From Thermoprotei archaeon (GTDB lineage: Archaea; Thermoproteota; Thermoprotei; Thermoproteales; B15-G16), in the NCBI GenBank assembly GCA_003649205.1, contig QMRC01000014.1, positions 1 through 49,045 of the forward strand: a stretch of 49,045 bases of DNA, read 5' to 3'. The notes below the pieces were generated by a model. The model did no database searches and had not been told where the DNA came from. It saw only the letters and a list, made by a program, of their open reading frames with translations. This document shows, in pieces, positions 1-49,045 of the stretch. The position numbers and the translations under genes were made by a program. Each line of letters starts with the position of its first letter. Position 1 is the first letter of the stretch.

Positions 1-50
1 ATGCGGGACTGTGGATCCCGTGAGCCCGGGTTCAAATCCCGGCCGCGGCC
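1..50 (+). tRNA. tRNA-His(GTG), 5' end truncated by window edge
   Basis: Anticodon arm cggga-ct-GTG-ga-tcccg, T-arm ccggg-ttcaaat-cccgg, acceptor 3' strand ccgcggc and discriminator C50. CCA is not encoded directly after it. Confidence 0.93.
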
Positions 51-1500: not shown

Positions 1501-1989
1501 CTAGGTCCTCACCTTACTTATATAGTTCTTGAGCTTCTGTACTAGTTTCAAGACATCTTCTCTATGTACTTCGAACTCTATCTTCTTCAGGAATCCGTGG
1601 TGGTAATTGGCGTGTAGTCTTTCAGCACTTGCAAATAATCTAGGTAGTTCCCTATCACCTGTTTTCTCCGTTACGTGACTAATTATTTCGTTGAAGTGTA
1701 TGTGCTTGTAGTGTGGTAGTTCTTCTAGTTCGCCTATGATGCTTAGTAGTGTGGTTACAGTACCCCAGTACTTTTCACTTGCTTGTATTAAATCGCCTTT
1801 CTTGTAGAAATCTTCTGCTTCCTTCATGTATTTTTCGTGCAATTTCTCGTAGATTCTGATTCTAGTTTCGGAGTTTGTGACATCAGTAACTAGTTCTAGT
1901 ATGAGCTCTGGTATTGTCTTACCTAGGTTACGTGCTTTCCTATGTAGTAACTCACGTAATTCCTCTGGTATCTCAATTTCTGTATTCAC
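1501..1989 (-). CDS. PaREP1-family (HEPN-like) protein with N-terminal ribbon-helix-helix-like segment
   Basis: Motifs GDLIQASEKYWG and AERLHANY are typical of PaREP1. N-terminus IEIPEELRELLHRKARNLGKTIPELILE resembles CopG/RHH. GGTGA SD-like element before the GTG start. Confidence 0.8.
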   Translation of the reverse strand: MNTEIEIPEELRELLHRKARNLGKTIPELILELVTDVTNSETRIRIYEKLHEKYMKEAEDFYKKGDLIQASEKYWGTVTTLLSIIGELEELPHYKHIHFNEIISHVTEKTGDRELPRLFASAERLHANYHHGFLKKIEFEVHREDVLKLVQKLKNYISKVRT

Positions 1990-3122: not shown

Positions 3123-4619
3123 ATGGTTAGGATAGTGTATGCGACTTTCATGAACTACGTCTTTAGCTTTGTTGAGGCTGTTATCAGCTTTCTCTTTGTG
3201 GTGCTAATTATTAGGAGGTTGTCCTTTAGCGATTTTGCTAACTGGATTCTCATCACTACCTACATCTCTTACGTGCTATTTCTAGCTGCTATATGTGATT
3301 ACTGGATTCCTAGGTATGTAGCTAGGGGGGTCAATGTCTCTAAGACAGGTATCGTGTTGATGTTACTGCTTGGTTTAGCTGCAACAGCTGTGTACTCTGT
3401 TGTAGGGTATGCTTTAGCTTTGACGTTTGGTCATGACATTGTTGCTACTCTGCTAGCTTCCTTCATTGTCCTGCTGATATTCCTTAATAGAGGTTTGAAC
3501 AGTATTGTCATTGGTACGAAACCTCAGTTCGCTACTCTGTGTCTTTTGGTGCAGAGAGCTACTCAGCTTGCTGTTGCTGTGTTGATGGTGTATTACCTTA
3601 GGTTTGGTGTTAGAGGTGTTGTTGTAGCGGCTATTGCTGGTTGGTGTGCATCGTGCATGGTACTCTACTCGATTACTCGTAAGTACATTTCTGAATCTAA
3701 AATTAACTACGAGATCATGGTTCTATGGATTAAGAGGGCTTGGATACCGTTGTACACATCCATCTCGGGTACCCTAATGGCGTTGGATTACACCGTTATG
3801 AGGTACATCACAGGTAGTGATGAAGTTATTGCACTGTACGGTGCTGGTGCTACATTTACAAAAGCTATTGCACTTACGGCACAGGCCATGCCTGCTCTCT
3901 ATGCAGGGATGCTGAAAGATGCTCGTGGTGAGTACCTGTACCATGCTCTCTGGGCCATGTACTTAGTAGCTATACCCTTAACAACCTTCATATACTTCAA
4001 CTCAAAGCTCATAGCAGCACTACTTGGTGTTAAGTACGTGAAGCTAGGTCCAGTACTACCTCTCTTCGCTACCATGTACATAGTCTACATAACGCATACC
4101 GCTATCACAGCAGTATTCACAGGATTAGAACGACGTGAATTAGGTACAGTATCCTCTAGAGAGCTACTGAAGACAGCACTCTTCAAGAACCCTACAGTGA
4201 ATGCTGTAGTGAATGTAGCTTACTTAGCTACACTAGCTCTCACCGTAATGTTCGTAAGAGAATTAGGAGTGTTCACAGTAGTGCTACTATGGGTACTACT
4301 CTCAACAACTAGGTATTTAGTACAGATAGTACTGAAGGAGTACCTACTCCGAAAGGACTTTAAGTTCCGAACAAACTACTTACTAATCTCCAAGTACCTA
4401 GCTAAGTTCACTCTACTCTCCGTACTCTGCTGTCTAGTAGTTAACCTAATTCCTGTAGAGTACAGCACAAGCATCTGGAAGATCACTCACTCCCTACTTA
4501 TGAGGGGAATACCGTACACCCTACTCTATGTGAGTATCACGTACTTAGTTGATGCTAGATTTAGATTACTTTGCTTAAGAGCAGTGAACATCCTAATACC
4601 TAGTAAAATACATAGGTAA
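3123..4619 (+). CDS. Polytopic membrane protein, probable Wzx/MATE-like polysaccharide flippase
   Basis: About 12-14 hydrophobic segments, RRLSFSDFANW after the first helix and a 498-aa length fit the MOP/Wzx family. Confidence 0.6.
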   Translation: MVRIVYATFMNYVFSFVEAVISFLFVVLIIRRLSFSDFANWILITTYISYVLFLAAICDYWIPRYVARGVNVSKTGIVLMLLLGLAATAVYSVVGYALALTFGHDIVATLLASFIVLLIFLNRGLNSIVIGTKPQFATLCLLVQRATQLAVAVLMVYYLRFGVRGVVVAAIAGWCASCMVLYSITRKYISESKINYEIMVLWIKRAWIPLYTSISGTLMALDYTVMRYITGSDEVIALYGAGATFTKAIALTAQAMPALYAGMLKDARGEYLYHALWAMYLVAIPLTTFIYFNSKLIAALLGVKYVKLGPVLPLFATMYIVYITHTAITAVFTGLERRELGTVSSRELLKTALFKNPTVNAVVNVAYLATLALTVMFVRELGVFTVVLLWVLLSTTRYLVQIVLKEYLLRKDFKFRTNYLLISKYLAKFTLLSVLCCLVVNLIPVEYSTSIWKITHSLLMRGIPYTLLYVSITYLVDARFRLLCLRAVNILIPSKIHR

Positions 4620-13524: not shown

Positions 13525-14349
13525 TTGCCAGTAGAGGTCAAGGTTCTGGAGAAACGCAATAACTACGTTAAGTTCATTATATCTGGTGTACCTGTAGCCT
13601 TTGTTAACTCGCTTAGGAGAACTATAATAGCTGAAGTACCTGTTATGGCAATTGATGAGGTAGTGATTCTAGACAATACGTCGGTTATGTATGATGAGGT
13701 TTTAGCACATAGATTAGCACTAATACCTCTGAAGACTGATCTAGAGAGTTACGTACTTCCAGAAGAGTGTGTTTGTGGTGGAATTGGTTGTTCCAGATGT
13801 CAAGTGAAGCTAGTGCTCGACGTAGAGGCTAAGGATGGAGATCTCATGGTCTATTCAGGTCACTTAAAGAGTGAAGACCCAGCAATAGTACCTGTTAGCG
13901 ATAAGATACCAATAGTTAAGTTGGCTAAGGGTCAGAGGATAGTGCTAGAGGCATATGCTAGGTTGGGTAGAGGTAGAGATCACGCTAAGTGGCAACCAGG
14001 TTTAGCAGCTTACAAGTACATGCCGAAGATAGTCATTGACGAAAGTAAGTGTAATGGATGTGGAGTTTGTGTTCAGAATTGTCCGAGAAATGTCCTAGAG
14101 ATTAAAGACGGTAAGGTTACCGTGTCTAAACTCCTTGACTGTAACCTCTGTAGATACTGTGAGATCGTTTGTCCAACAAAGGCTATTAGAGTGGAGCACG
14201 AGGATAGTACATATGTGTTCTTTGTTGAGTCCTTTGGCCAGCTAGATGTGAAGACCCTAGTACTGAAAGCTCTTGAGGTACTTGATCAAAAGTGCGTAAA
14301 GTTCTTAGAGGAGTGTGAACATGCGATAGAGGAATTCAAGAAGGAGTGA
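13525..14349 (+). CDS. rpoD: RNA polymerase subunit Rpo3 (D) with ferredoxin-like insert
   Basis: [31 protein letters not shown] and two CxxCxxCxxxCP motifs. Confidence 0.97.
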
Positions 14350-19476: not shown

Positions 19477-19527
19477 ATGATGAGGTGGTCCGGGGTACCT
19501 GATGGGTGATTGAATGGGGCCAGCTGA
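19477..19527 (+). ncRNA. C/D-box sRNA (2'-O-methylation guide)
   Basis: Box C ATGATGA (19477-83), D' CTGA (19499-502), C' GTGATTGA, D CTGA (19524-27); about 51 nt. Confidence 0.75.
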
Positions 19528-19891
19528 GAACTGTGCTGTTGTGTTTAATGGTTTAGTGGAGGACTATCTCTGTTTGAGGTGGATTGCTAGATGTGGTTAC
19601 TCCACTATTTACCTCATAGTTCCCCTAAGGGCTTATTGTGATGCTGTTCTTAAGAGAGTTGAAGAGCTAAGGTTACAGACATTTGTTGTTGATTTAGATA
19701 ACTACGTAGTTGCTAAGAACTGTCTTCGGTATCTGTACGAGAGGTATGGTATTGGAGTTATTGCAGTGAGCGCTTCATGTCTCACAAGTGTACTGGAGAG
19801 AGTCTGTAGGGAGTTAGGTATAGTATTGAGAGTGCTTTCTACTCCATGCTATATCCCATGGTCTAGGGTCGCTACACGTACTATGGTGTGA
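19514..19891 (+). CDS. Hypothetical protein, possibly a degenerate PP-loop (Dph6/ANH-like) fold
   Basis: CAVVFNGLVED aligns with AVLFSGGKDS, and LERVCRELGI resembles Dph6-like ERVCEELGL. Confidence 0.55.
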   Translation: MGPAENCAVVFNGLVEDYLCLRWIARCGYSTIYLIVPLRAYCDAVLKRVEELRLQTFVVDLDNYVVAKNCLRYLYERYGIGVIAVSASCLTSVLERVCRELGIVLRVLSTPCYIPWSRVATRTMV

Positions 19892-38223: not shown

Positions 38224-39204
38224 ATGAGTGAACTACTTTGGACTGAGAAGTACAGACCTAAGAGACTCGATGAGATCGTTGATCAAAGGGAAATAGTTGA
38301 GAGACTTAAGGAGTTCGTAAGGAATAAATCAGTACCGCACCTACTCTTCTGCGGTCCTCCAGGTACTGGTAAGACCACTGCCGCACTCTGCCTAGCATAT
38401 GAGCTCTATGGTGAGAACTGGAGAAGCAATGTACTTGAACTTAATGCATCTGATGAGAGAGGTATCTCTGTCATCCGTGAAAGAGTGAAGGACTTCGCTA
38501 GGACTGCTCCTTCAGGTGATGTACCGTTCAAGATGGTGATACTAGATGAGGCTGACAACATGACTGCTGATGCACAGCAAGCACTTAGGAGAATGATGGA
38601 GATGTATGCTAGGAACACGAGATTCTGCCTCATAGCAAATTACCTATCCAAGATAATAGATCCGATACAGTCTAGATGTGCTATATTCAGATTCTCACCA
38701 CTACCGAAGGAGGATGTACTAGCTAGATTGAAGTACATAGCTAAGTGTGAGAAAGTTGTAGTTACTCACGATGGACTTGAAGCTATATGGGATGTCTCAG
38801 GTGGTGATCTCAGGAGAGCAATAAACATATTGCAAGCAGCAGCTGCCATAGGTGAGGTTGTTGATGCTGATACGGTGTACAAGGTAGCTGGATTAGCTAG
38901 TCCAAAGGAAATTCGTGAGATGTTGGTACTAGCTCTAAAGGGTGATTTCCTGAAAGCACGAGACACTCTCCGTAAGCTAATGATTGAGTACGGTATGTCA
39001 GGTGTAGATCTACTTCGGCTAGTACAGAAGGAGATATTTTCAGAGAAGTCACCACTTGACTTACCTCCTGAAGCTAAGGTTGAGATTGCTGAGTTAGCAG
39101 GTGAAATAGACTTTAGGTTAACTGAGGGTGCTGATGAAGAGATACAGATGTCCACATTCCTTGCTAAGCTAGCTCTCATCGGGAAGAAGTATAAGGTTAG
39201 GTGA
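38224..39204 (+). CDS. rfcS: Replication factor C small subunit
   Basis: [32 protein letters not shown]. Confidence 0.97.
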
Positions 39205-39210
39205 TAGCTC

Positions 39211-40446
39211 GTGAGTAGGGCACTACCGTGGACTGAGAAGTATAGGCCGAAGAGAGTTGCTGAAGTAGTGGGGAATGAAGAAGCTAAGAGGCAGTTCCTA
39301 ACTTGGTTGAGGAGATGGGAGAGAGGAGTTCCAGAGAAGAAGGCGGCTCTACTTGTAGGTCCACCAGGGTGTGGAAAGACAACTCTGGTCTATGCAGCAG
39401 CTAATGAGTTCGGTTATGAAGTTATTGAGATGAATGCTAGTGATGTTAGGACTGCGGAGAAGATTAAGAGGATAGTTGGTTCATCAATTCGTGAAACTTC
39501 ACTCTTTGGCTATAGGGGTAAGATAGTTCTCTTCGATGAAGTTGATGGTATTAGTACGAGAGAAGATAGAGGTGGTCTCTCTGCCATACTCGAGATAATT
39601 AAGGAGAGTAGGGTACCCATCGTCCTTACGGCAAACAACCCATGGGATCCTAAGTTCAGAGACCTAAGAGAAGTCTGTGAAGTTATTAGGTTTAACCCGA
39701 TACCGAAAAGTGAAGCTATTAAGGTGCTCAAGAGAATTTGTGAGAAGGAAGGTATTGAAGCTGATGAAAGAGCACTTGCATTACTCATAGAGAGAGCACA
39801 AGGCGATTTAAGAGCAGCAATAAACGATTTACAGGCAGTAGCACAGGGTAAGAAGAGGATAACTGTGGACGACATTAGAGGTCTAGGTGATAGATCAAAG
39901 CAGATGGATATGTTCGAAATCTTGAGGAGGGTCTTCACAGCAAAGACTTTTGATCAAGCTAGGTTAATCACGTTAAACCCATCATTTGACTATGAAATGT
40001 ACTTCCAGTGGATTCACGAGAATTTACCGTATCAGTACAAAAACAGTATAGAAGCACTTGCAGAGGCATACGATGCACTCTCAAAAGCTGATGTGTACAT
40101 GGGCAGAATCAAGAGAGAACAAGAGTGGTCACTCCTACCATATGCACTAGAACTAGCAACTGCTGGTGTCTCACTAATACCACATAAACCACCATTTAAG
40201 TTCGTTAAGTATAACTTCCCACAGAAGATCTTGTTAATGGCTAGGACAAAGGAATTCAGACAGAAAAGAGATGCCTTACTCAGAGAGCTAGCTAGAAGGA
40301 TGCACATATCCTCCTCCAAGTTACTAATTGAAGTACTACCGTACCTCAAGATAATTGCTGAACGAAGGAGAGATGTACTGGAGAAGATAGCCCATGAACT
40401 AGGTACGACAGGTAGGGAAGTACTCAAGTACCTCCTGAAGGTGTAG
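39211..40446 (+). CDS. rfcL: Replication factor C large subunit
   Basis: PWTEKYRP, GPPGCGKT, EMNASD, DEVDG, GDLRAAINDLQ. Confidence 0.95.
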   Translation: MSRALPWTEKYRPKRVAEVVGNEEAKRQFLTWLRRWERGVPEKKAALLVGPPGCGKTTLVYAAANEFGYEVIEMNASDVRTAEKIKRIVGSSIRETSLFGYRGKIVLFDEVDGISTREDRGGLSAILEIIKESRVPIVLTANNPWDPKFRDLREVCEVIRFNPIPKSEAIKVLKRICEKEGIEADERALALLIERAQGDLRAAINDLQAVAQGKKRITVDDIRGLGDRSKQMDMFEILRRVFTAKTFDQARLITLNPSFDYEMYFQWIHENLPYQYKNSIEALAEAYDALSKADVYMGRIKREQEWSLLPYALELATAGVSLIPHKPPFKFVKYNFPQKILLMARTKEFRQKRDALLRELARRMHISSSKLLIEVLPYLKIIAERRRDVLEKIAHELGTTGREVLKYLLKV

Positions 40447-40732
40447 ATGCTCTACACAACTCCTCATCCAACTTAAACAGCTCTCTAAGTAGCTTAATTC
40501 GAGGATCACTTTCATTTACTTTAAATATCCTTATCCTACCAAATCTCTTCTCAATTACTAATCCTGCTTTGACTAGCGCTTCGAGATGTGAGAGAACAAC
40601 TGTGTGGTTAAGCTCTGATCTCTTAACAATTTCAGTTATGTTTAGCTCGTGAGCTTCAAGCAACACCTTCAATACCTTAACCCTACCCTTGCTCGAAAAT
40701 ATTTCCTCCAAAGGTACATAACCACTACTCAT
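40424..40732 (-). CDS. Winged-helix (ArsR-like) DNA-binding protein
   Basis: FSSKGRVKVL, ITEIVK..LNHTVVLSHLEAL, EKRFGRIRIF; start overlaps the cdc6 stop (ATGA). Confidence 0.8.
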   Translation of the reverse strand: MSSGYVPLEEIFSSKGRVKVLKVLLEAHELNITEIVKRSELNHTVVLSHLEALVKAGLVIEKRFGRIRIFKVNESDPRIKLLRELFKLDEELCRASTPSGGT

Positions 40733-41955
40733 CCATGGTCACCGCCCCTTAAGACAGCAAGAATAGTCTTCTCCAAGGTACCTAGTGGCTCGTGCATTAT
40801 TCCTACAAGCGTAGTCCTACCTCTACTATACTTTGAACCTACTGTAGCATTTAAGATGCCTCTACTCTTTAACTCCTGAACGTACTCCCACACCTGTGTA
40901 TGTTGTCTAGGTTTTTCACCAAACTCCTCACACAGCATCCTGTACTCAGCTTCAACCTCACTTAGAGGTACCTTAACTTCGGTTCTCTTCCTCTGGAGAA
41001 CCCTAACAACAGCTAGTAGTAGAAGTAATTGATGCTTCTTCAACGACTTAAGCTCCTCAACAGATATGCTCACTAAGGTATCTTTCACTGCCTTTCTTAC
41101 GTGGTCTGGTAGTATTACGGATGTACCCTCGACTTCAGCTATCTTACCCGCTCTCCACAGTATCTCTATTGCGTACCTAGCATCACCTCTCCCACCTGTA
41201 TCCTTTCCAGAGATTTCAGCAATCATATCGAGAATCTCAGGTCTCACAACACCTTCGATAAAAGCTTCTTCTGCTCTATCGTGTAATATATCGTAGATCT
41301 GTGCCTTGGTGTAGGGTGGAAACTTAATGACGTTGTGCTGTAACGCACTTCGAACACTTGGATCTAGCTTGAATATGAAGTTCTCATCACGTGATATCAA
41401 TATGAGACCTATCCTGTGCTCTCTACCCAGGTACTCGTCTGTAACTCTAACCAGTGTGTAGAGAGCACCTTCACCACCTGGTGTCTGGAGTAGTGAGTCG
41501 ACCTCATCTAAGGTAATTATCACGTAGAGATTCTTATCGACGAGTAGGTCAAGTATTATCTTCAGTAGTTCCTGCGTTGAAAAACCTCTTTTTGGGACAG
41601 GTAACTGAAGTTGAGAAGCAACCTCCTGCAGTATTAGGAAGAGTGTTCTACATTTGTAGCAATTCACGTGAACATACTTAATGGGTTTACCTACCTTCTT
41701 CGCATAATCAGTTACATCTTGACCAAATTTCTTTGCGCATACAGTCTTTCCAGTACCTATGTCACCTACCTCAATCACCTTGGGAAAACATGAACCTGGA
41801 TTCTCAACGAAGTTTATGAAGTACGATACTAGTCTCTTTAGCTGCTCCTCCCTATGAGGTAGCTTAGGGGGTACGTACTCTATAGAGAGTTTACTCTCGT
41901 CCTTAAATATCCTTGAACGTACTTTAGCTATGTACTCCTCAACGATATTTACCAT
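40729..41955 (-). CDS. cdc6: Orc1/Cdc6 replication initiator
   Basis: YVPPKLPHRE, GDIGTGKT, LDEVD, FPPY, GDARYAI and a C-terminal wHTH ending RGRTT. Confidence 0.95.
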   Translation of the reverse strand: MVNIVEEYIAKVRSRIFKDESKLSIEYVPPKLPHREEQLKRLVSYFINFVENPGSCFPKVIEVGDIGTGKTVCAKKFGQDVTDYAKKVGKPIKYVHVNCYKCRTLFLILQEVASQLQLPVPKRGFSTQELLKIILDLLVDKNLYVIITLDEVDSLLQTPGGEGALYTLVRVTDEYLGREHRIGLILISRDENFIFKLDPSVRSALQHNVIKFPPYTKAQIYDILHDRAEEAFIEGVVRPEILDMIAEISGKDTGGRGDARYAIEILWRAGKIAEVEGTSVILPDHVRKAVKDTLVSISVEELKSLKKHQLLLLLAVVRVLQRKRTEVKVPLSEVEAEYRMLCEEFGEKPRQHTQVWEYVQELKSRGILNATVGSKYSRGRTTLVGIMHEPLGTLEKTILAVLRGGDHG

Positions 41956-42041: not shown

Positions 42042-42581
42042 TTATTGACGTTCATTATCAGATACTTTACGGCGTTCAACGAATATTCCGACCTGTTCGC
42101 CGATGCTCTCTATGTATATCACGTACATTGGATTGCTTAAGTTCACCTTAGCTTTATTTCGAAAATGCTGAAGTACTCTAGCACCAATTTCACGTTCAAC
42201 ATCTTCTTCACGGAAATCTCCTCCCACCTTCCTAAAGGTACATCTCACAGCAAATGTAAAATGGGGTAAGTCCCTAGTTTTCTCCTCAAGTAACGAGATT
42301 ACACATTGAGAGATCTCATCAACCTGCAATCTACATTCACGTTCAAAGGGCACTACACGAAATACGCCAGGGATTGGGTACTTCCGAAATCTCTCTAGCA
42401 AATCATCTACGTTCACATCAGCATGAAGTTCTACCAGGACTAAGCCAGCTAGATTAGGTACCTTACTAGCTCTAACACTACGGTCTATAGTGAATAGGAG
42501 GTCTCTAACATCTCGAATTACTCTAACCTCCTTACCTGGTTTCGTAGTTAGTAGTACCCTCAAGATCTTTGCACTACACAC
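42042..42581 (-). CDS. THUMP-domain RNA-binding protein
   Basis: TFAVRC, VEREIGA, KVNLSNPMYVIYIE. Confidence 0.85.
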   Translation of the reverse strand: MCSAKILRVLLTTKPGKEVRVIRDVRDLLFTIDRSVRASKVPNLAGLVLVELHADVNVDDLLERFRKYPIPGVFRVVPFERECRLQVDEISQCVISLLEEKTRDLPHFTFAVRCTFRKVGGDFREEDVEREIGARVLQHFRNKAKVNLSNPMYVIYIESIGEQVGIFVERRKVSDNERQ

Positions 42582-42613
42582 AATATAGCTTAAATCATGA
42601 TTGAGATAAAAAC

Positions 42614-43819
42614 CTAGTTCGTAACCTCTTTACTGAGGATACCACATCGCTTCTTCAAGAACTCATGGAACACCTCAATACTCACTGTAGGGAACTGAGG
42701 TAACTCCTTAACCCAAATAGATCTATACGCATCAGTGACCTCACCTAACTTAACAGCACCTCTAGCACATCCCTTCTCTATCTCCTTTCGGATACTATCT
42801 CTGAGAAGTGAAAACATCTTAGCAACCTTAGGTACGTACCTCCAAAGACCATACCTAATGAAATCACTGAAATCTACGTAATCTCGATACCACTTCTCAT
42901 AGCTCATCCTCAGTACGGAGTCTATTAAACCAGGGTCTTCGACCTCATCCACACTACTGATCAACACCTCATATGTTGATCTGTACGGACAGTAGGTACA
43001 GGAAACTCTAGAGAAACCTCTCAAGTACTGTGGATGAACGATACCTGTAGATTCACGACATATCTTAACGATGTCCACTATGGTCAGTGGGTAGATAGGT
43101 CTGAATTCTTTACCGCTAATGAAGGTACTTCGCTCTAGCAATGCCATTAATCTCTTAAACCTCTTCCTACACTCAAGCAATCTATCTCCAGTAACCTCAA
43201 AATCAGCACCAATAACCTTACGGATGCTCCTCAATGGTCTTACTTTGAGGTAGGTACACCATCTAGATCTTCTATAGGGTAATCCCTCCTTCATAAGGTA
43301 CTTCCTAACGATCCACCTAGGTGGTTCAAGTACCTCAATGTCAATACCTAATCTCTTACCAATTTCCATGACATAGTCAACATTTATCTTGGGTTCAAGG
43401 TATGGTATGTGTACGTAACATACATGGAGTCTGAACCTGACTAATTCCTGGAGCTTTAGTAGTATGATCAATGCAGCAGTACTATCTTTACCTCCACTGT
43501 ACGAGAGCAGTAGGGTCTTACCCTCTATATGCTTACCAACGAACTGCTGTAGGTACCTCACATAGCTATCGAGATCAGGTACTATCGAGTAGGGTGTTGG
43601 AGTTGTGTACTCGAACCACTGCTCTCTATCAACTACGTAGTCACCTAGTTTCAGTACACGATTCTTAACTAGTTCAAGTACCTCGATACCTAGGTCATCA
43701 AGCCATAGGTAGAGTTCGCTTACCTCTCCATCTAGTGTTAGGTATCCTGTAAACTCACAGCTGCTGCATATGAACTTAGTTACTTTGTTGCTGGTGATTA
43801 CTGGTTGTGGTTCTGTCAT
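42614..43819 (-). CDS. PAPS-reductase-family PP-loop protein with putative Fe-S cysteines
   Basis: SYSGGKDS, RWCTYLKVRPL, GDRLLE, HPQY..GFSRVSCTYCP. Confidence 0.82.
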   Translation of the reverse strand: MTEPQPVITSNKVTKFICSSCEFTGYLTLDGEVSELYLWLDDLGIEVLELVKNRVLKLGDYVVDREQWFEYTTPTPYSIVPDLDSYVRYLQQFVGKHIEGKTLLLSYSGGKDSTAALIILLKLQELVRFRLHVCYVHIPYLEPKINVDYVMEIGKRLGIDIEVLEPPRWIVRKYLMKEGLPYRRSRWCTYLKVRPLRSIRKVIGADFEVTGDRLLECRKRFKRLMALLERSTFISGKEFRPIYPLTIVDIVKICRESTGIVHPQYLRGFSRVSCTYCPYRSTYEVLISSVDEVEDPGLIDSVLRMSYEKWYRDYVDFSDFIRYGLWRYVPKVAKMFSLLRDSIRKEIEKGCARGAVKLGEVTDAYRSIWVKELPQFPTVSIEVFHEFLKKRCGILSKEVTN

Positions 43820-43882: not shown

Positions 43883-44605
43883 GTGATTCATGTGGTTAAG
43901 TTGTTGATTACTGTGTGGTTTCCTGATGAGGTTGAGGATGCTGTAGCTGGTGGTGCAGATGTCGTTGATGTTAAGGATCCTTCAGTGGGGAGTTTAGGTC
44001 TACCGAATCTAGGTGTAGTAGCTGAGGTCGTAGAGAGGGTACGTGGTGTGAGAGAGGTTAGTGTTGCTATTGGTGATGTGAGATGCCCGGGTAGGTATCT
44101 TGAGTACGTTGCCTATGCTGTGGCTAGGTTAGGTGTTTCCTATGTGAAGGTTGGTCTTGAGGTACCTAGTGTGGATTTGGGTACAGAAGTTGTGACTCAG
44201 GTAGTTGAAGGACTGAGATACTGCAGTGAGAAGCCAAAGCTTGTTATTGTGGGGTATGCAGATTATGTTAGGGTTAACTCGCTACCACCTATGAAGGTTC
44301 TTGAGGTAGCGTACAAGGTCTCAGCTGATGGCATTATGGTGGATACGAGAATTAAGGATGGTACCACCACATTCGATTACCTAACGAGTGAGTACCTCAA
44401 GTGCCTTGTAGCTAAAGCCAAGGACTATGGACTCTTCACAGCTGTTGCTGGTAGTTTGAAGAAGGAACACATACATAGATGTGTTGAATTGGGTTTCGAC
44501 GTCATTGGATTTAGATCAGCTGCGTGTGAGAGAGGTCGTCTAGGTAGGGTATCTCGTAAGCTTGTTGAGGAACTAAAGAGTGAAGTGCTTAGGTACGCGA
44601 AGTGA
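43883..44605 (+). CDS. mfnB: (5-formylfuran-3-yl)methyl phosphate synthase (DUF556), methanofuran biosynthesis
   Basis: GGADVVDVKDP..GSLG, VSVAIGD, YVKVGL, GYAD, MVDT..KDG, AGSL, IGFRSAAC. Confidence 0.88.
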   Translation: MIHVVKLLITVWFPDEVEDAVAGGADVVDVKDPSVGSLGLPNLGVVAEVVERVRGVREVSVAIGDVRCPGRYLEYVAYAVARLGVSYVKVGLEVPSVDLGTEVVTQVVEGLRYCSEKPKLVIVGYADYVRVNSLPPMKVLEVAYKVSADGIMVDTRIKDGTTTFDYLTSEYLKCLVAKAKDYGLFTAVAGSLKKEHIHRCVELGFDVIGFRSAACERGRLGRVSRKLVEELKSEVLRYAK

Positions 44606-44607
44606 TT

Positions 44608-45261
44608 CTAAGGTAGCAGTATGGTGTAGCTACCTTCCTCACCTCTGATTAGGTGATTGAGGAGCCAAGGCTTTAATCCATTGAACACCACAGTAGGTAC
44701 CTTCAATTCGCTAACTAGCTTAGGCACGTACTCATCAACAACATCAATCTTCCCACTAAACTCACTAACCTTAATTACATGCAGCAAGTTCCCTCTCTCA
44801 TCTACAATACCATCAACCACCTTGCTCAAGAGCACGGAATCTACGTGAAGTAGGTAGCCGATGTACACAGCAAGGGAGTCACTAGTCACAGACCAACTAC
44901 ATGGTAATTCCCCACCATGTCTCTTAAGTACTTCGTAAGGTAGGAGAACAGGTACCTTTTTCACACTCCAAACCTTAGATACCTCCCAAAGCGAGGAAAC
45001 TGACACTAGAGCATCGTGAAGTGACGCCACGTACACACCGTAGACCTCCATGGACTTAATAGCCATCCAGTGGGCAACGAAGTCACTGAGCCCAAGCTCA
45101 CTCTGTAACTCCCTAACTAAATCAGCAAATACACTACCACCAGGGACCAGTACGAAGTACACGTACTTACTAAGTTCAACAACCTTGTCAATTAACCTCT
45201 CTAGAGACTCTCTGTACCAAAGTAACTCACCACTAATCTTCAAGACAAATCTCTTCTTCAC
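44608..45261 (-). CDS. mfnE: Amino-acid-kinase family protein, MfnE-like furan-phosphate kinase
   Basis: VPGGSVFADLVR, AHWMAI, LPCSWSVTSDS, VDG; context among mfn genes. Confidence 0.78.
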   Translation of the reverse strand: MKKRFVLKISGELLWYRESLERLIDKVVELSKYVYFVLVPGGSVFADLVRELQSELGLSDFVAHWMAIKSMEVYGVYVASLHDALVSVSSLWEVSKVWSVKKVPVLLPYEVLKRHGGELPCSWSVTSDSLAVYIGYLLHVDSVLLSKVVDGIVDERGNLLHVIKVSEFSGKIDVVDEYVPKLVSELKVPTVVFNGLKPWLLNHLIRGEEGSYTILLP

Positions 45262-45263
45262 GA

Positions 45264-46337
45264 TTAAGCACCTCCGTGAACGAGCATCAACGCAGCGGCA
45301 TAAGCAGGGAACACACTCGATATCTCATGACCTACTAAATCTCGTATGCTAATTACTTCCTTAAAACCAGCTCTCACAGCTGCTACTCTAGCTAGGAACT
45401 CACCAATTCCTGCTGTTACAGCAGTGAAGGTATTGGGATCCATACCCTGTGAAGCTATCCTCGATCTAATCTGCATAAGAGCTTCAAATACCTTAAATAC
45501 CTGAACCTCGTAGATGTACCTAGCTAATTCACGAATCTCATACTCATTCATCATATCGACATCAGCACAGACAACCCTAGCAAGTCTCTCCATAGCTTCC
45601 CTAACTGACTTACCCCTACCATCAGCTGTCTCAGTAGTGTAGTCTTCAGGAGCTATGTTACTAAGTACTAGGTGCACATCACCCATCAATGCAAATCTCT
45701 CAAAGGAAACTCTAACCATGTACCCCTTGTAGGGAACCTTATCAACGAGAGCAGCTACATTACCTCTGAGAACACCGGTGTAAACGAGTTCACCACACTG
45801 AAGCTTTTCTGGATCTGTAAGACCAAGTACCTGAACCTTACCACCTACAATAGGTATTATCGTCGTTGTCGTACTACCGATATCGATGAACACTAGGTTA
45901 CGTATACCCCACTTACTACAGTACTTCTCTAGGAACCAAGCGCTAGCAGCCCAATTAGCAGCAGCAACCTTCAGGTAGTTCTTCACTGCCTCATCTCTAT
46001 CAACAAGCTTCATCTCAACAGTAACAAACTTTACATCACGGGCATCGTGAAATGCCTCGCAGACCGACCTTACAACATGCTCAACCCCTTCTCTCTTAAC
46101 ACGATATATGTCGCAGAGCTCAGCAGTCATGCATGCCGCCACGACATAGCTATCAATACCAGAGGTGAGTCTAGACTTGAGTTCACGGAGCTTCTTCTCA
46201 AGACCTACCTTACCGTGGATCCACAGTGGAAAGTACTCTCGAATAGTTTCAAGGAGCTTTACCTCATCTCCACTCACAAGTAGCTTAACGGCCTTCAAAT
46301 TAGCTCCACCAACGTCTAAACCAATGACATAAATCAC
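45264..46337 (-). CDS. mfnF: Hydantoinase/oxoprolinase-family protein, MfnF-like
   Basis: GLDVGGANLK, YFPLW, MTAELCD, AAANW, DIGSTTT, GELVYTG, RLARVVCAD. GTG start at 46337 preferred. Confidence 0.85.
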   Translation of the reverse strand: MIYVIGLDVGGANLKAVKLLVSGDEVKLLETIREYFPLWIHGKVGLEKKLRELKSRLTSGIDSYVVAACMTAELCDIYRVKREGVEHVVRSVCEAFHDARDVKFVTVEMKLVDRDEAVKNYLKVAAANWAASAWFLEKYCSKWGIRNLVFIDIGSTTTTIIPIVGGKVQVLGLTDPEKLQCGELVYTGVLRGNVAALVDKVPYKGYMVRVSFERFALMGDVHLVLSNIAPEDYTTETADGRGKSVREAMERLARVVCADVDMMNEYEIRELARYIYEVQVFKVFEALMQIRSRIASQGMDPNTFTAVTAGIGEFLARVAAVRAGFKEVISIRDLVGHEISSVFPAYAAALMLVHGGA

Positions 46338-46377
46338 GTAGATACCCTCAATAATGTAGAGGGAGGTGAGACGATAT

Positions 46378-47055
46378 ATGGTTCGTGTAATACCTGTACT
46401 CGACGTAATGGGAGGTCTCGTAGTACATGCAGTTGCTGGTAGGAGAGAGGAGTACAGACCCATATCAGGTAGTGTGGTCTCCCCAAGTCCGGATCCTAGA
46501 CATGTACTCTCGAGGCTCTACTCAATGGGGTTTAGGGAGATCTACATTGCCGATCTAGATGCGATAGTGGGTAGAGGTCGAAATGACTGGGTTCTAGAGC
46601 TAGCTACATCCATGGGGTTCAAGGTACTTGCTGACGTAGGTAGGAGGGGGTTAGAGCTTCAGGATAAAGCTAGTATTGAGTACGTTATCGGTACGGAGTA
46701 CCTGGAGTACCCAAGCGAACTAGATCTCATCAGCGGTAGAGTCATGAGTTTAGATTGCTTTGACTTCGATATTAGATTCAGGAACACAACTCTAAACCTA
46801 AGGAATGTACTACCTGAAGTAGTTCATAGAGCACCAAAGAAGATACTCCTTATTGATCTAAGTAAGGTAGGTACGATGCAGGGACCAAATACCGACCTAG
46901 TGAAGTTCGTACGTAGTAGCTATAGTGGAGAGCTAATTGTTGGTGGTGGTACTCGTGATGAAAGTGATGTACTACTGCTGAAGAGTATAGGTGTCGATGC
47001 TGTACTCGTAGCAACAGCTCTACACAGAGGTATTATCAAGAGAGTAGAGTACTAA
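46378..47055 (+). CDS. HisA/HisF-related TIM-barrel protein of C1-cofactor clusters
   Basis: IPVLDVMGGLVVHAVAGRREEYRP, YIADLDAI, DLSKVGT, VGGG, VLVATALH. Confidence 0.82.
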   Translation: MVRVIPVLDVMGGLVVHAVAGRREEYRPISGSVVSPSPDPRHVLSRLYSMGFREIYIADLDAIVGRGRNDWVLELATSMGFKVLADVGRRGLELQDKASIEYVIGTEYLEYPSELDLISGRVMSLDCFDFDIRFRNTTLNLRNVLPEVVHRAPKKILLIDLSKVGTMQGPNTDLVKFVRSSYSGELIVGGGTRDESDVLLLKSIGVDAVLVATALHRGIIKRVEY

Positions 47056-48202
47056 CAACATCAGCTAGGTACCTCAAATTCTGTGGAAGCAAAGTACGTA
47101 GTCTAGATTCAACATAACCTAAATCACCACAATCAACATGCATCATCTCGATGCTAATACCAGGAACGTATATGATCTCCTCTCCATTAACAAGACTAGG
47201 AAATTCCGTAAGAACATAGTACGAGTACCTATCTGAAATCAGTGGCACTCTAGTCTTCAGCTCTACATTACTAACAGCACTAAGGAGGTAAAGACCAGCT
47301 TTAGGACCGAGCAATTTGCTGAGACCAACATAGGAAGTAGTCAATCTAGGGTTAACCTCAACAACATAGAGAGAACCACCGTGATAGATAACATCAAAAC
47401 CAACGTAACCTCTTAAACCAGGTAACTCCTCAACAACTCTGCGTACTAGTGAAGTAGCTTCAAAAGCAAACCTACGTAGAGGGAGCAGACCACCATAGTA
47501 CCTAAAACCATGGTTAACACCAATGAATTGTAGGTTCAAGCTCAGGAGAGTAACATCACCATCACGAACGATAGCTGAGATACTCATGTGAGTACCAGGG
47601 ACGTACTCCTGAACTAGAGCATAACACACCTCACTACACGACAGAGCACGAGATACAGCACCCTTCAGCTCACTACATGAAGTAACCAGTGAGGTACCTG
47701 AACCACCAGCACAATCAACAGGCTTAGCAACAACAGGAAAACCAAGCTCAGAAACCTCAGGTATCGATAGGCTTCCGTGCACAAAGACCGTAGGTGGAAC
47801 ATCAATCCCCAACTCACCAAGTAACCTAATCGTAGCGAACTTATTGGAAAATAACTTAACCAATCTAGGTTCAGAACCAAGAAACCTATCACCAACAACA
47901 TCGACAACCCTAATCAACTGAGGTGGAGGAGCAATAGCAACAACATAGTCATACCGATCACAGTACTCACGAAGAAAATCAATGAGATCAAGCTCTCTCG
48001 GAACACATACAACACCTACACCTCTAGGTACAGTAACCCTACTCAACACATCAGGACACAAAGCTAAATCAACAGAGACACCACATGAAGCTAAATCCCT
48101 AGCAACGTAGTAAGCCATAGCAAAGCCCTCAGTAATGAACTCCTTAAGAGCATAGAGGTGCTTAGAGGAACAACACACATACTCAGCAACAAGAACCTCC
48201 AT
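47036..48202 (-). CDS. mfnD: ATP-grasp ligase, MfnD-like (tyramine-glutamate ligase)
   Basis: EG.AM near the N-terminus, IAP, KPVDCAGG, QEYVPG, GYVGFD, VEVNPRLTTSY. Confidence 0.75.
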   Translation of the reverse strand: MEVLVAEYVCCSSKHLYALKEFITEGFAMAYYVARDLASCGVSVDLALCPDVLSRVTVPRGVGVVCVPRELDLIDFLREYCDRYDYVVAIAPPPQLIRVVDVVGDRFLGSEPRLVKLFSNKFATIRLLGELGIDVPPTVFVHGSLSIPEVSELGFPVVAKPVDCAGGSGTSLVTSCSELKGAVSRALSCSEVCYALVQEYVPGTHMSISAIVRDGDVTLLSLNLQFIGVNHGFRYYGGLLPLRRFAFEATSLVRRVVEELPGLRGYVGFDVIYHGGSLYVVEVNPRLTTSYVGLSKLLGPKAGLYLLSAVSNVELKTRVPLISDRYSYYVLTEFPSLVNGEEIIYVPGISIEMMHVDCGDLGYVESRLRTLLPQNLRYLADVVSTLLS

Positions 48203-48261: not shown

Positions 48262-48714
48262 TCACCTACCGCACTCACTTTCAACAAGTTTAGAACATAG
48301 CTCATAGACGAACTTAGCCCTCTTGATTGCTTCTCGAGCATCAACCTCATCATACAACTCTTCAGGAGGTATCTCAGCCTCCTCATCACCGTACATAGCA
48401 GGACCACGATTATGAGCTAGATCCCTAGAGATCCTAGCTAACTCATCAACATGAACTCTAAACCACTCAGGAAATAGGTTCCTGTACTGCCTCAATACAT
48501 AACCAACATCATGAGCCCTAGGGTACTCAATACCTAGAAACCTCAAAACAGCCTTCAAACACAGCTCAATAGCTTCCTGACACAATCTAACAACCAAGTG
48601 AAAGTACCTCCTTTCAAGACAGATCTCAGCCAACTCAATTCTCCTACCAGCATCAACGAGGTAAGAGCGAACAAAATGAAGCTTACGCTCACTCAACAAG
48701 CTTAACCCCCACAA
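48262..48714 (-). CDS. HEPN-domain protein (MNT-HEPN partner)
   Basis: QEAIELCLKAVL, YPRAHDV, RGPAMYGDE. True start likely a TTG near 48696-48699. Confidence 0.88.
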   Translation of the reverse strand: MWGLSLLSERKLHFVRSYLVDAGRRIELAEICLERRYFHLVVRLCQEAIELCLKAVLRFLGIEYPRAHDVGYVLRQYRNLFPEWFRVHVDELARISRDLAHNRGPAMYGDEEAEIPPEELYDEVDAREAIKRAKFVYELCSKLVESECGR

Positions 48715-49045
48715 GCTCTATGAATGGATTACCCCTCTCAAAAACCCAGTACCACCTCCTACCTAACCAAACCCTCTTACCACCAAACAACGCAATGTAG
48801 CACCTAACTCTTTCGAGAACCCTCCTCAAAAAACCACCACGATCATACAGAATAACAGCATCCTCAACAAGATCGAGATACAGAGGTCTAAAGTACTTCG
48901 CCTCCTCAACACTAAGAACAACAGGACTTACACCAGTGTACATACCCCTCCTAGCTAACTCACACCTAAGATCCTCAACAGCATCAACAGCTCTAGAGAC
49001 CAACTCATACCTACGGAATCTAGACCTAGGAACAGACCTCATCAC
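48689..49045 (-). CDS. Minimal nucleotidyltransferase (MNT), 5' part outside window
   Basis: SPVVLSVEEA, LYLDLVEDAVILYD..GFL, KRVWLGRRWYW C-terminal pattern; overlaps the HEPN start. Confidence 0.75.
   Translation of the reverse strand: MMRSVPRSRFRRYELVSRAVDAVEDLRCELARRGMYTGVSPVVLSVEEAKYFRPLYLDLVEDAVILYDRGGFLRRVLERVRCYIALFGGKRVWLGRRWYWVFERGNPFIELVGVKLVE

What the first reader, a model, noticed from the sequence alone, without database searches (positions are those of the whole stretch)
43883..48202. Methanofuran biosynthesis cluster in a Thermoproteales-like crenarchaeon
Seen: five contiguous genes with motifs of MfnB, MfnE, MfnF, a HisA-like protein and an MfnD-like ATP-grasp ligase. Known: these make the furan, activate it, glutamylate tyramine and couple the halves of methanofuran, the C1 carrier of methanogens, Archaeoglobi and (as an analogue) methylotrophs. 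Among crenarchaea I recall such C1 genes only in rare cases such as Ignisphaera. mfnA and mfnC are not in the window. Inference: this lineage runs a formyl-MFR/H4MPT C1 pathway (CO2 fixation, formaldehyde or methyl oxidation) or makes a variant furan cofactor.
Basis: partly seen in the sequence, partly recalled or inferred. Interest (0 to 1): 0.75.

Follow-up and report, generated by a model that had tools for sequence, protein, structure and literature searches.

The report
Methanofuran-core gene cluster in a Thermoproteales-like archaeon
Five tightly packed genes in an uncultured hot-environment archaeon most likely build the furan core of methanofuran, a one-carbon carrier; relatives carry the same genes, so this is a real but fairly ordinary find.

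Summary
Window 43883-48202 carries five abutting genes. Their best profile matches are MfnB, MfnE, MfnF (TIGR03123, above its cut-off), the HisA/HisF-related family TIGR00734, and an ATP-grasp ligase whose nearest named family is MfnD.

The same five genes, in the same order and orientation, occur in a Thermoprotei MAG (L003, 40-62% identity). There they lie 2-8 kb from FwdA, FwdD/B, Mtd and Ftr, and next to CofD/CofE. This links the module to enzymes that use methanofuran.

The HisA-like gene matches the family of Orf17, which is genetically required for methylofuran in Methylorubrum (PMC8141765). One relative is fused to MfnA.

RpoB places the host as a deep branch beside Vulcanisaeta.

The rarity claim fails. 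MfnF homologues are common in Thermoprotei-labelled MAGs, and the literature already lists such genes in Thermoproteales and Ignisphaera (PMC5020050; 10.1101/391417).

No MFR-using enzyme, mfnA or mfnC lies in the window, and the rest of the genome could not be searched.

Verdict: a new member of a known kind, of modest interest.

The parts
43883..44605 (+). MfnB-like 4-HFC-P synthase. It would condense two glyceraldehyde-3-phosphate molecules into the furan aldehyde phosphate. The true start may be GTG 43892.
   Evidence: PF04476: 197.6 bits, full length. NCBIfam NF002575: 188 bits, the best hit but below its cut-off of 304. PDB 4RC1 (MJ1099): E 7.7e-41. In that alignment the columns of MJ1099 D25, K27, K85, D151 and K155 are identical in the window protein (D29, K31, K89, D154, K158). 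45% identical to the L003 orthologue.
44608..45261 (-). MfnE-like kinase of the amino-acid-kinase fold. It would convert F1-P to F1-PP. It is co-directional with MfnF, 2 nt away.
   Evidence: PF00696: 48.5 bits. NCBIfam MfnE NF040622: 129.5 bits; it is the only hit but lies below its cut-off of 300. 45% identical to the L003 orthologue. The same gene follows MfnF in L001 and L003.
45264..46337 (-). MfnF-like coupling enzyme of the Hydantoinase_A/ASKHA fold. It would join F1-PP to gamma-glutamyl-tyramine. The mechanical ORF runs on to 46463.
   Evidence: TIGR03123: 314.5 bits, above its cut-off of 244.1. NF040623 MfnF: 236.4 bits, below its cut-off of 520. The database holds the 357-aa form that starts at GTG 46337. 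In the tree it sits inside a clade of 23 Thermoprotei-labelled or unnamed rows (SH-aLRT 100).
46366..47055 (+). HisA/HisF-related TIM-barrel protein of the TIGR00734 (Orf17/MJ0703) family. Its biochemical step is unknown. The probable start is ATG 46378.
   Evidence: TIGR00734: 137.5 bits, the best hit but below its cut-off of 179.85. True HisA scores only 52.7 bits. It lies next to MfnF in the window and in all 3 related loci. All 150 sequences scanned (the window protein plus its 149 nearest representatives) match TIGR00734, and 1 of them is fused to MfnA. Orf17 is required for methylofuran (PMC8141765, passages read).
47036..48202 (-). Long ATP-grasp ligase (388 aa) of the MfnD/Orf1/MyfA-like ATP-grasp_3 group. 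It is the presumed glutamate ligase of the pathway.
   Evidence: PF02655: 113.7 bits. MfnD_Meth: 76.3 bits on residues 196-317 only, against a cut-off of 400. Invariant K121, K160, E282, N284 and R286 in an alignment of 40 relatives. AlphaFold model: pLDDT 92.3. Best PDB fold match: 3DF7, an Archaeoglobus fulgidus ATP-grasp protein, TM 0.80 by target. 40% identical to the L003 orthologue at the same position in the module.

Best explanation
The interval is a five-gene module for the core of a methanofuran-type furan cofactor, carried on the chromosome of an uncultured, deep-branching Thermoproteales-like archaeon.

Inferred route, taken from the characterised Methanocaldococcus enzymes (a pathway I recall; in part restated in PMC8141765 and PMC11365854):
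1. MfnB condenses two glyceraldehyde-3-phosphate molecules to 4-(hydroxymethyl)-2-furancarboxaldehyde phosphate.
2. A transaminase encoded elsewhere (MfnC) makes F1-P.
3. MfnE phosphorylates F1-P to F1-PP.
4. The ATP-grasp ligase supplies or extends the gamma-glutamyl-tyramine (or -tyrosine) arm.
5. MfnF couples the two halves.
6. The HisA/HisF-like barrel acts at a still unknown early step of core formation.

The cofactor would then serve formylmethanofuran dehydrogenase and formyltransferase in an H4MPT-linked C1 route.

Shown here: the family matches, conserved MfnB catalytic columns, conserved ATP-grasp motifs, and conservation of the whole module and its physical linkage to fwd/ftr/mtd in a relative.

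Inferred: every enzymatic step, the exact substrate of the ligase, the role of the HisA-like protein, and the presence of the C1 enzymes in this genome.
For: - Family matches for all five genes. TIGR03123 passes its curated cut-off.
- The MfnB columns of D25, K27, K85, D151 and K155 of MJ1099 are conserved. Lys155 is named catalytic or substrate-binding in PMC11365854 (passages read). The roles of the other four residues are recalled.
- The module is conserved in L003 with identical order and orientation, at 40, 50, 62, 45 and 45% identity. It is partly seen in L001 and L002, which are cut by contig ends.
- In L003 the module lies beside these genes: FwdA (TIGR03121, 758.9 bits), a FwdD/B fusion (TIGR03129, 586.2), Mtd (NF002162, 388.8), Ftr (TIGR03119, 399.3), CofD and CofE.
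- Bacterial genetics: Orf22, Orf21 and Orf9 are the MfnB, MfnE and MfnF homologues. Orf17 (PF00977) and OrfY/MyfA (an ATP-grasp partly similar to MfnD) are required for methylofuran (PMC8141765).
- A HisA-like domain is fused to MfnA in representative P0479 (TIGR00734 132.5 bits plus TIGR03812 394.3 bits, above its cut-off of 299.4).
- Atlas look-alikes of both the ligase and the barrel come from methanogens, Planctomycetota, Pseudomonadota, Bathyarchaeota and Asgard groups, that is, H4MPT/MFR users. They include a cluster auto-named 'Orf1 family'.
- GC content of the interval (0.445-0.452) lies within the window's range of 0.419-0.462, so there is no sign of a foreign island.
Against: - Four of the five genes fall below the curated NCBIfam equivalog cut-offs: MfnB 188 against 304, MfnE 129.5 against 300, MfnF 236.4 against 520, MfnD 76.3 against 400. 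TIGR00734 is also below its cut-off (137.5 against 179.85).
- No fwd/fmd, ftr, mch, mtd, mer, cdh, mcr, mfnA or mfnC lies in the 49-kb window.
- The linkage evidence comes from a relative whose MfnF is only 62% identical.
- The ligase covers only part of the MfnD model and carries about 80 extra C-terminal residues.
- No biochemical data exist for any crenarchaeal member.
Confidence: 0.8

Rival explanations
1. The module makes a variant furan cofactor rather than canonical methanofuran, closer to bacterial methylofuran. The long ATP-grasp would act like MyfA/OrfY, adding a second or further glutamate, possibly on tyrosine rather than tyramine. A separate MfnD would either lie elsewhere or be absent.
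For: - The ligase matches only the C-terminal half of the MfnD model, at 76.3 bits. PMC8141765 describes MyfA in the same way: 'part of the sequence shows similarity to MfnD'.
- It is 388 aa against a 288-position MfnD model, and it has an extra C-terminal subdomain in the model.
- mfnA is not in the window.
- Bacterial relatives from methylotroph-type taxa score in the same range: Methylophilaceae 78.9 bits, Burkholderiales 55.9 bits.
Against: - All 14 relatives tested have an MfnD_Meth hit, and it is the top hit in 13 of them.
- The best fold match is a 301-aa Archaeoglobus protein of MfnD size.
- No reference MyfA or MfnD sequence could be compared directly.
- A relative of the HisA-like gene is fused to MfnA, which points to tyramine use in at least one lineage.
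Confidence: 0.3
2. The HisA-like and ATP-grasp genes are neighbours with another job. Examples are H4MPT biosynthesis, as once proposed for MJ0703, or glutamylation of H4MPT or F420. On this reading only MfnB, MfnE and MfnF belong to furan synthesis.
For: - PMC8141765 reports that MJ0703 had been suggested to act in H4MPT biosynthesis.
- Weak ATP-grasp hits to MptN (25.5 bits) and CofF (22.4 bits).
- CofD and CofE lie near the module in L003.
Against: - The orf17 mutant still made methenyl-dH4MPT but made no methylofuran (PMC8141765).
- The HisA-like gene abuts MfnF in the window and in all 3 related loci.
- A HisA-like domain is fused to MfnA.
- MfnD is by far the best named match for the ligase (76.3 bits against 47.9 bits for the next hit).
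Confidence: 0.12
3. The module is a relic. The lineage keeps cofactor genes but has lost the MFR/H4MPT C1 route, or uses the products for something unrelated to C1 transfer.
For: No MFR-using enzyme lies in the 49-kb window. Partial H4MPT branches are reported in other TACK groups, for example Culexarchaeia (PMC9723716, passages read).
Against: - All five ORFs are intact, and the catalytic columns are conserved.
- The module is conserved at 40-62% identity across lineages, which implies purifying selection.
- It is linked to fwd/ftr/mtd in L003.
Confidence: 0.1

Closest known systems
Methanofuran core pathway MfnA-F of Methanocaldococcus jannaschii (MJ1099 MfnB, MJ0458 MfnE, MJ0840 MfnF, MJ0815 MfnD; the locus numbers other than MJ1099 are recalled)
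   Same: The same families supply the furan synthase, the kinase and the coupling enzyme. The MfnB catalytic columns are identical. The ligase's nearest named family is MfnD.
   Different: Scores lie well below the methanogen-tuned equivalog cut-offs. The genes are clustered here. The ligase is about 100 residues longer and matches only part of the MfnD model. mfnA and mfnC are not in the cluster. A HisA-like gene is part of the module.
The 'archaeal-like' C1 gene cluster of Methylorubrum extorquens and Methylobacillus flagellatus (Orf22=MfnB, Orf21=MfnE, Orf9=MfnF, Orf17=HisA/F-like, OrfY=MyfA; PMC8141765)
   Same: The same five protein families work together. Orf17 and an MfnD-related ATP-grasp are genetically required for the furan cofactor.
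   Different: The bacterial genes sit within a much larger island that includes fhcABCD and H4MPT genes. Here, and in L003, the five genes form a compact block with alternating orientation. Which bacterial ligase (Orf1/MfnD or OrfY/MyfA) the archaeal one corresponds to is unresolved.
The H4MPT branch of the Wood-Ljungdahl pathway reported in Ignisphaera-family and other TACK MAGs (10.1101/391417; PMC5020050; PMC9723716; PMC10667645 from its abstract only)
   Same: It offers the same kind of host, a thermophilic Thermoprotei, and the same inferred user pathway. L003 shows fwd, ftr and mtd next to the module.
   Different: In the passages I read, those papers score the C1 enzymes and not the cofactor-synthesis genes. 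The present host branches beside Vulcanisaeta and not with Ignisphaera, and its own C1 enzymes were not seen.

Membership tests
MfnB / 4-HFC-P synthase (PF04476; NCBIfam NF002575) | Full-length match above the Pfam gathering score | tested here: met
   197.6 bits against a gathering score of 22.4; residues 7-231 match profile positions 1-227 of 228.
MfnB / 4-HFC-P synthase (PF04476; NCBIfam NF002575) | NCBIfam equivalog cut-off | tested here: not met
   188 bits against a cut-off of 304. It is still the best of 5 hits.
MfnB / 4-HFC-P synthase (PF04476; NCBIfam NF002575) | Catalytic Asp and Lys residues of MJ1099 (D25, K27, K85, D151, K155) | tested here: met
   All five columns are identical in the alignment to 4RC1 (residue mapping done by hand, with a chain offset of 7). 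The role of K155 comes from PMC11365854; the roles of the others are recalled.
MfnE (NCBIfam NF040622) | Equivalog cut-off and amino-acid-kinase fold | tested here: inconclusive
   129.5 bits against a cut-off of 300. It is the only NCBIfam hit and covers positions 3-208 of 211. PF00696 scores 48.5 bits, above its gathering score.
MfnF / TIGR03123 H4MPT-linked C1 protein | TIGR03123 trusted cut-off | tested here: met
   314.5 bits against a cut-off of 244.1.
MfnF / TIGR03123 H4MPT-linked C1 protein | NF040623 MfnF equivalog cut-off | tested here: not met
   236.4 bits against a cut-off of 520.
HisA/HisF-related family TIGR00734 (Orf17/MJ0703) | Family cut-off, and a better match than true HisA or HisF | tested here: inconclusive
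   137.5 bits against a cut-off of 179.85. This is 85 bits above HisA. All 150 sequences scanned (the window protein plus its 149 nearest representatives) match TIGR00734 at E 1e-10 or better.
HisA/HisF-related family TIGR00734 (Orf17/MJ0703) | Genomic association with furan-cofactor genes | tested here: met
   It lies next to MfnF in the window and in L001, L002 and L003. There is one fusion to MfnA.
MfnD tyramine-L-glutamate ligase (NF040722) | Equivalog cut-off with full-length coverage | tested here: not met
   76.3 bits against a cut-off of 400. Only residues 196-317 match, to model positions 162-279 of 288.
MfnD tyramine-L-glutamate ligase (NF040722) | ATP-grasp_3 fold with a pre-ATP-grasp domain and nucleotide/Mg motifs | tested here: met
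   PF02655 scores 113.7 bits. The invariant K, E-x-N and R columns are present. The model matches 3DF7 with TM 0.80 by target. The N-terminal pre-ATP-grasp_3 domain is detectable only in the L003 orthologue, and only weakly (16.5 bits).
MfnD tyramine-L-glutamate ligase (NF040722) | Tyramine + glutamate ligase activity | not testable with these tools
   This needs an enzyme assay.
Complete methanofuran pathway with its user enzymes | mfnA and mfnC present | tested here: not met
   They are absent from the window.
Complete methanofuran pathway with its user enzymes | fwd/fmd and ftr in the same genome | not testable with these tools
   They are not in the window. They are present beside the module in relative L003.

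The most novel reading that the evidence does not exclude
The TIGR00734 HisA/HisF-like barrel is an unrecognised, broadly conserved extra enzyme of furan-cofactor core synthesis in Archaea as well as Bacteria. Together with a long, crenarchaeal-type ATP-grasp ligase that stands in for MfnD, it forms a self-contained five-gene 'furan-core' module. That module would be inherited within Thermoprotei from an ancestral MFR/H4MPT C1 pathway. If so, the six-enzyme MfnA-F scheme is incomplete in vivo, and a Thermoproteales-related lineage still runs MFR-dependent C1 chemistry.
Probability: 0.4. Interest if true: 0.55.

Novelty: new member of a known kind. Interest (0 to 1): 0.32.

Why it matters
The finding adds a Vulcanisaeta-side, Thermoproteales-like lineage to the archaea that carry methanofuran synthesis genes. 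This bears on how widely the H4MPT/MFR C1 route survived in Thermoprotei.

Its more useful yield concerns the HisA/HisF-like Orf17/MJ0703 family, whose function is still unknown. Conserved five-gene synteny and an MfnA fusion give independent archaeal support that this family belongs to furan-cofactor synthesis. It also flags a long ATP-grasp ligase whose substrate is open. Both points are directly testable by enzymology or by knock-outs in tractable methanogens.

Tried and rejected
- **Foreign island.** Rejected. GC content of the interval lies within the window's range. The MfnF tree places the gene inside a Thermoprotei clade.
- **True HisA.** Rejected. TIGR00007 scores only 52.7 bits against 137.5 for TIGR00734. 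The PDB hits to HisF and HisA are weak.
- **Ligase as MptN, CofF, RimK or Ddl.** Rejected as first choice. These score 22-36 bits against 76.3 for MfnD.
- **Promoter and terminator scan**. It uses bacterial consensus patterns and is not informative for an archaeon: 1 promoter-like site against 8.5 expected, and 2 terminator-like sites against 2.9 expected.
- **Repeat search around orc1** for origin boxes. It gave only short matches of chance level, so I make no origin claim.
- **Paper search for 3DF7/MfnD**. It returned no relevant paper beyond PMC8141765. The idea that 3DF7 is the Archaeoglobus MfnD orthologue therefore stays a recollection.
- **Jay et al. 2016**. The paper is not held. Its content is known only through the citation in PMC5020050.
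- **Cluster look-up** for the fusion protein and the nearest relatives.
- **Gene-context survey.** The genome-contig scan returned only 3 loci, so a wide survey was not possible.
- **Supplementary files.** None were consulted. Table S4 of PMC8141765 (homologue lists) may bear on the MfnD versus MyfA question.

Full report
**What is in the sequence**

The finding's limits coincide with five ORFs:
- 43883-44605 (+)
- 44608-45261 (-)
- 45264-46463 (-)
- 46366-47055 (+)
- 47036-48202 (-)

The genes abut with 2-nt gaps. There is one 20-nt convergent overlap and one short divergent spacer.

Pfam and NCBIfam give the following matches:
- 4HFCP_synth/MfnB: PF04476 197.6 bits; NF002575 188 bits.
- MfnE: NF040622 129.5 bits, the only NCBIfam hit.
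- TIGR03123 'probable H4MPT-linked C1 transfer pathway protein': 314.5 bits, above its cut-off of 244.1. MfnF NF040623 scores 236.4 bits.
- HisA/HisF-related family TIGR00734: 137.5 bits, against 52.7 for true HisA.
- ATP-grasp_3: 113.7 bits. MfnD_Meth is the best named family, but at only 76.3 bits and only on residues 196-317.

Apart from TIGR03123, all the NCBIfam family models (the four equivalogs and TIGR00734) fall below their curated cut-offs, which are tuned on methanogens.

Gene starts need small corrections:
- MfnF very probably begins at GTG 46337. That gives the 357-aa form held in the protein database, and the profile match begins there.
- The HisA-like gene probably begins at ATG 46378.
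- MfnB possibly begins at GTG 43892.

**Active sites**

Aligned to the solved MfnB of M. jannaschii (4RC1, E 7.7e-41), the window protein keeps the columns of D25, K27, K85, D151 and K155 (I mapped the residues by hand). PMC11365854 names Lys155 as catalytic or substrate-binding (passages read). The roles of the other residues are from memory.

For the ligase, an alignment used 40 sequences: 39 of the 120 listed hits (the window's own protein included) plus the L003 orthologue. It keeps the ATP-grasp lysines and the E-x-N-P-R motif invariant.

The AlphaFold model of the ligase is confident (pLDDT 92.3, pTM 0.92). Its best PDB neighbour is 3DF7, a 301-residue ATP-grasp protein of Archaeoglobus fulgidus (E 5.1e-20, TM 0.80 by target, 21% identity). 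The other matches are generic biotin-carboxylase-type folds. The window protein has about 80 further C-terminal residues. That 3DF7 is the Archaeoglobus MfnD orthologue is only my recollection, and the search did not confirm it.

**Surroundings and host**

The rest of the window is core chromosome:
- unsplit RpoB, RpoA' and RpoA''
- ribosomal proteins and EF-1alpha
- IleRS, CTP synthase and SAM synthetase
- RtcB with archease
- RFC small and large subunits
- Orc1/Cdc6

None of the 49 window ORFs scanned with NCBIfam is a Fwd/Fmd, Ftr, Mch, Mtd, Mer, Cdh, Mcr, MfnA or MfnC. The 9 further window ORF translations put through Pfam also carried no such family. The only 'FwdF/HdrA' rows are weak 4Fe-4S-domain hits of RpoD. 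GC content of the interval is unremarkable.

The best non-self RpoB hit is 74% identical. I built a FastTree of 27 of the 120 listed RpoB rows, taking 20 of the 23 rows that carry an organism name, the window's own row and 6 top unnamed rows, and dropping the other 93. It puts the window in a clade (support 100) with one unnamed sequence and three Vulcanisaeta. Thermofilum-labelled and 'Thermoprotei archaeon' rows branch next, and Methanomethylicia and Nezhaarchaeota branch further out.

Pyrobaculum, Thermoproteus and Caldivirga were not among the rows. The placement is therefore 'Thermoproteales-like, deep', from a single gene. A PaREP1 protein agrees with it.

**Related loci**

Of 18 pattern matches, 3 were confirmed, giving 3 loci:
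- L001: a 2.4-kb contig titled 'uncultured Thermoproteales archaeon', 93% identity.
- L002: titled 'uncultured Desulfurococcales archaeon', 67% identity.
- L003: titled 'Thermoprotei archaeon isolate B12_G16', 62% identity.

L003 carries all five genes in the same order and relative orientation. Identities to the window proteins are 40% (ligase), 50% (HisA-like), 62% (MfnF), 45% (MfnE) and 45% (MfnB).

L001 and L002 are cut by contig ends, but both show HisA-like next to MfnF, and L001 also shows MfnE.

In L003 the following genes lie near the module:
- FwdA (TIGR03121, 758.9 bits), 2-8 kb away on one side.
- A FwdD/FwdB fusion (TIGR03129, 586.2 bits), same side.
- F420-dependent Mtd (388.8 bits), same side.
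- Ftr (TIGR03119, 399.3 bits), same side.
- CofD and CofE, just beyond the other side.

A truncated ORF at the end of the locus has a sub-threshold GXGXG (FwdC-type) match. This is the strongest evidence that the module serves a formyl-methanofuran/H4MPT route. It is evidence from a relative, not from this genome.

**The two less obvious genes**

PMC8141765 (abstract and passages read) makes these points for Methylorubrum and Methylobacillus:
- Orf22, Orf21 and Orf9 are the MfnB, MfnE and MfnF homologues.
- Orf17 is a PF00977 protein with MJ0703 as homologue.
- Orf17 is required for methylofuran but not for dH4MPT. No intermediates accumulate, and its function is unknown.
- OrfY/MyfA is an ATP-grasp 'partly similar to MfnD' that adds the second glutamate.

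The window's HisA-like protein belongs to the same family by profile. An exhaustive search found 3084 representatives at E 0.001 or better, 1580 at 1e-10 or better, and 11 at 1e-30 or better. I scanned the window protein together with 149 of the 150 listed representatives. All 150 match TIGR00734 at E 1e-10 or better, and 147 of 150 also match true HisA more weakly.

One of the 150, P0479 (618 aa), is a fusion. Its N-terminal TIGR00734 domain scores 132.5 bits, and its C-terminal tyrosine decarboxylase MfnA scores 394.3 bits, above the cut-off of 299.4. It is therefore a single observation, and a gene-calling artefact is not excluded.

Identity of the ligase's relatives drops sharply: 100%, 86%, then 36-37% in rows labelled Desulfurococcaceae or Sulfolobales. 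All 14 relatives I tested carry an MfnD_Meth hit of 55.9-143.2 bits, all below the cut-off of 400, and it is the top hit in 13 of them.

Atlas look-alikes of both proteins come from Methanobacteriota, Bathyarchaeota, Asgard groups, Planctomycetota and Pseudomonadota. They include a cluster auto-named 'Orf1 family', and PMC5020050 equates orf1 with mfnD.

I conclude that the ligase belongs to the MfnD/Orf1/MyfA-like group. Whether it makes gamma-glutamyl-tyramine or extends the chain is open.

**How common, how new**

MfnF homologues are plentiful: 3066 proteins at E 1e-10 or better among the 8000 scored. Of the 120 listed, 16 carry organism names:
- The 11 with 50% identity or more are all labelled Thermoprotei, Crenarchaeota, Ignisphaera, Desulfurococcaceae, Acidilobales or 'Thermofilum pendens' (labels as given by the sources).
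- The 5 at 45-49% are labelled Baldrarchaeota, Methanomethylicia, Bathyarchaeota (two) and Jordarchaeaceae.

A quick IQ-TREE of 31 of the 120 rows puts the window inside a clade of 23 such rows (SH-aLRT 100), apart from the Bathy, Methanomethylicia and Asgard rows. This fits inheritance within Thermoprotei. It does not exclude transfer inside the class, and there is no methanogen or bacterial outgroup.

What the literature says:
- PMC5020050 (passages read) already lists Thermoproteales and Ignisphaera among crenarchaea with H4MPT/MF genes.
- 10.1101/391417 (passages read) reports complete Wood-Ljungdahl gene sets in Ignisphaera-family MAGs.
- PMC11237513 (passages read) notes FwdB/D fusions in 14 TACK assemblies.
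- Searches for methanofuran-synthesis genes in these lineages and for MJ0703 found no paper in the held library that describes this five-gene module in Thermoprotei.
- Jay et al. 2016 and Adam et al. 2019 are not held and were not read.

**Verdict**

It overstates the rarity, leaves the ligase mis-specified as MfnD, and cannot yet be tied to C1 enzymes in this genome. It is a new member of a known kind.

The points worth follow-up are the conserved placement of the Orf17/MJ0703-family barrel, including one MfnA fusion, and the long ATP-grasp ligase.

Noticed in passing
P0479 (a representative found with window 46378-47055): A 618-aa protein fuses a TIGR00734 HisA/HisF-like domain (residues 1-232) to a full MfnA tyrosine decarboxylase (residues 246-614, 394.3 bits). 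It is 1 of the 150 sequences scanned. Its source organism and cluster size are unknown.
   Followed up: partly
L003 458-5770 and 14008-15799: In the Thermoprotei MAG, FwdA, a FwdD/FwdB fusion, F420-dependent Mtd and Ftr sit on one side of the five-gene module. CofD and CofE (F420 synthesis) sit on the other side. Fumarase and a 2-oxoacid:ferredoxin oxidoreductase follow.
   Followed up: partly
window 48262-48714 (-) and 48689-49045 (-); L002 8505-9256: A HEPN-domain gene with an overlapping upstream ORF flanks the module in the window. That upstream ORF has no family hit and is cut by the window end. A HEPN plus nucleotidyltransferase pair flanks the HisA-like gene in L002, where no ATP-grasp gene lies between them.
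   Followed up: no
window 1-50 and 291-1490: The window opens inside the 3' part of a tRNA gene (Rfam, 32.7 bits). A 399-aa ORF with a LAGLIDADG_3 match follows, then a PaREP1-family ORF at 1501-1989 (-).
   Followed up: no
window 42042-43819 (-): A THUMP-domain protein and a PAPS-reductase/PP-loop-like protein (PRK08576-type, 89 bits) lie directly upstream of MfnB. They are probably an RNA-thiolation pair. They are not conserved next to the module in L003.
   Followed up: no
window 38224-41955: RFC small and large subunits, an ArsR-type regulator and Orc1/Cdc6 lie together, and the cumulative GC skew peaks near 38-40 kb. A repeat search found no convincing origin boxes.
   Followed up: partly
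window 13525-14349 (+): RNA polymerase subunit D carries a ferredoxin-like 4Fe-4S segment (residues about 165-230). That segment produces weak, misleading hits to FwdF, HdrA and other iron-sulfur proteins.
   Followed up: no
window 3123-4619 (+) and 19514-19891 (+): A 498-aa ORF and a 125-aa ORF have no Pfam or NCBIfam match.
   Followed up: no
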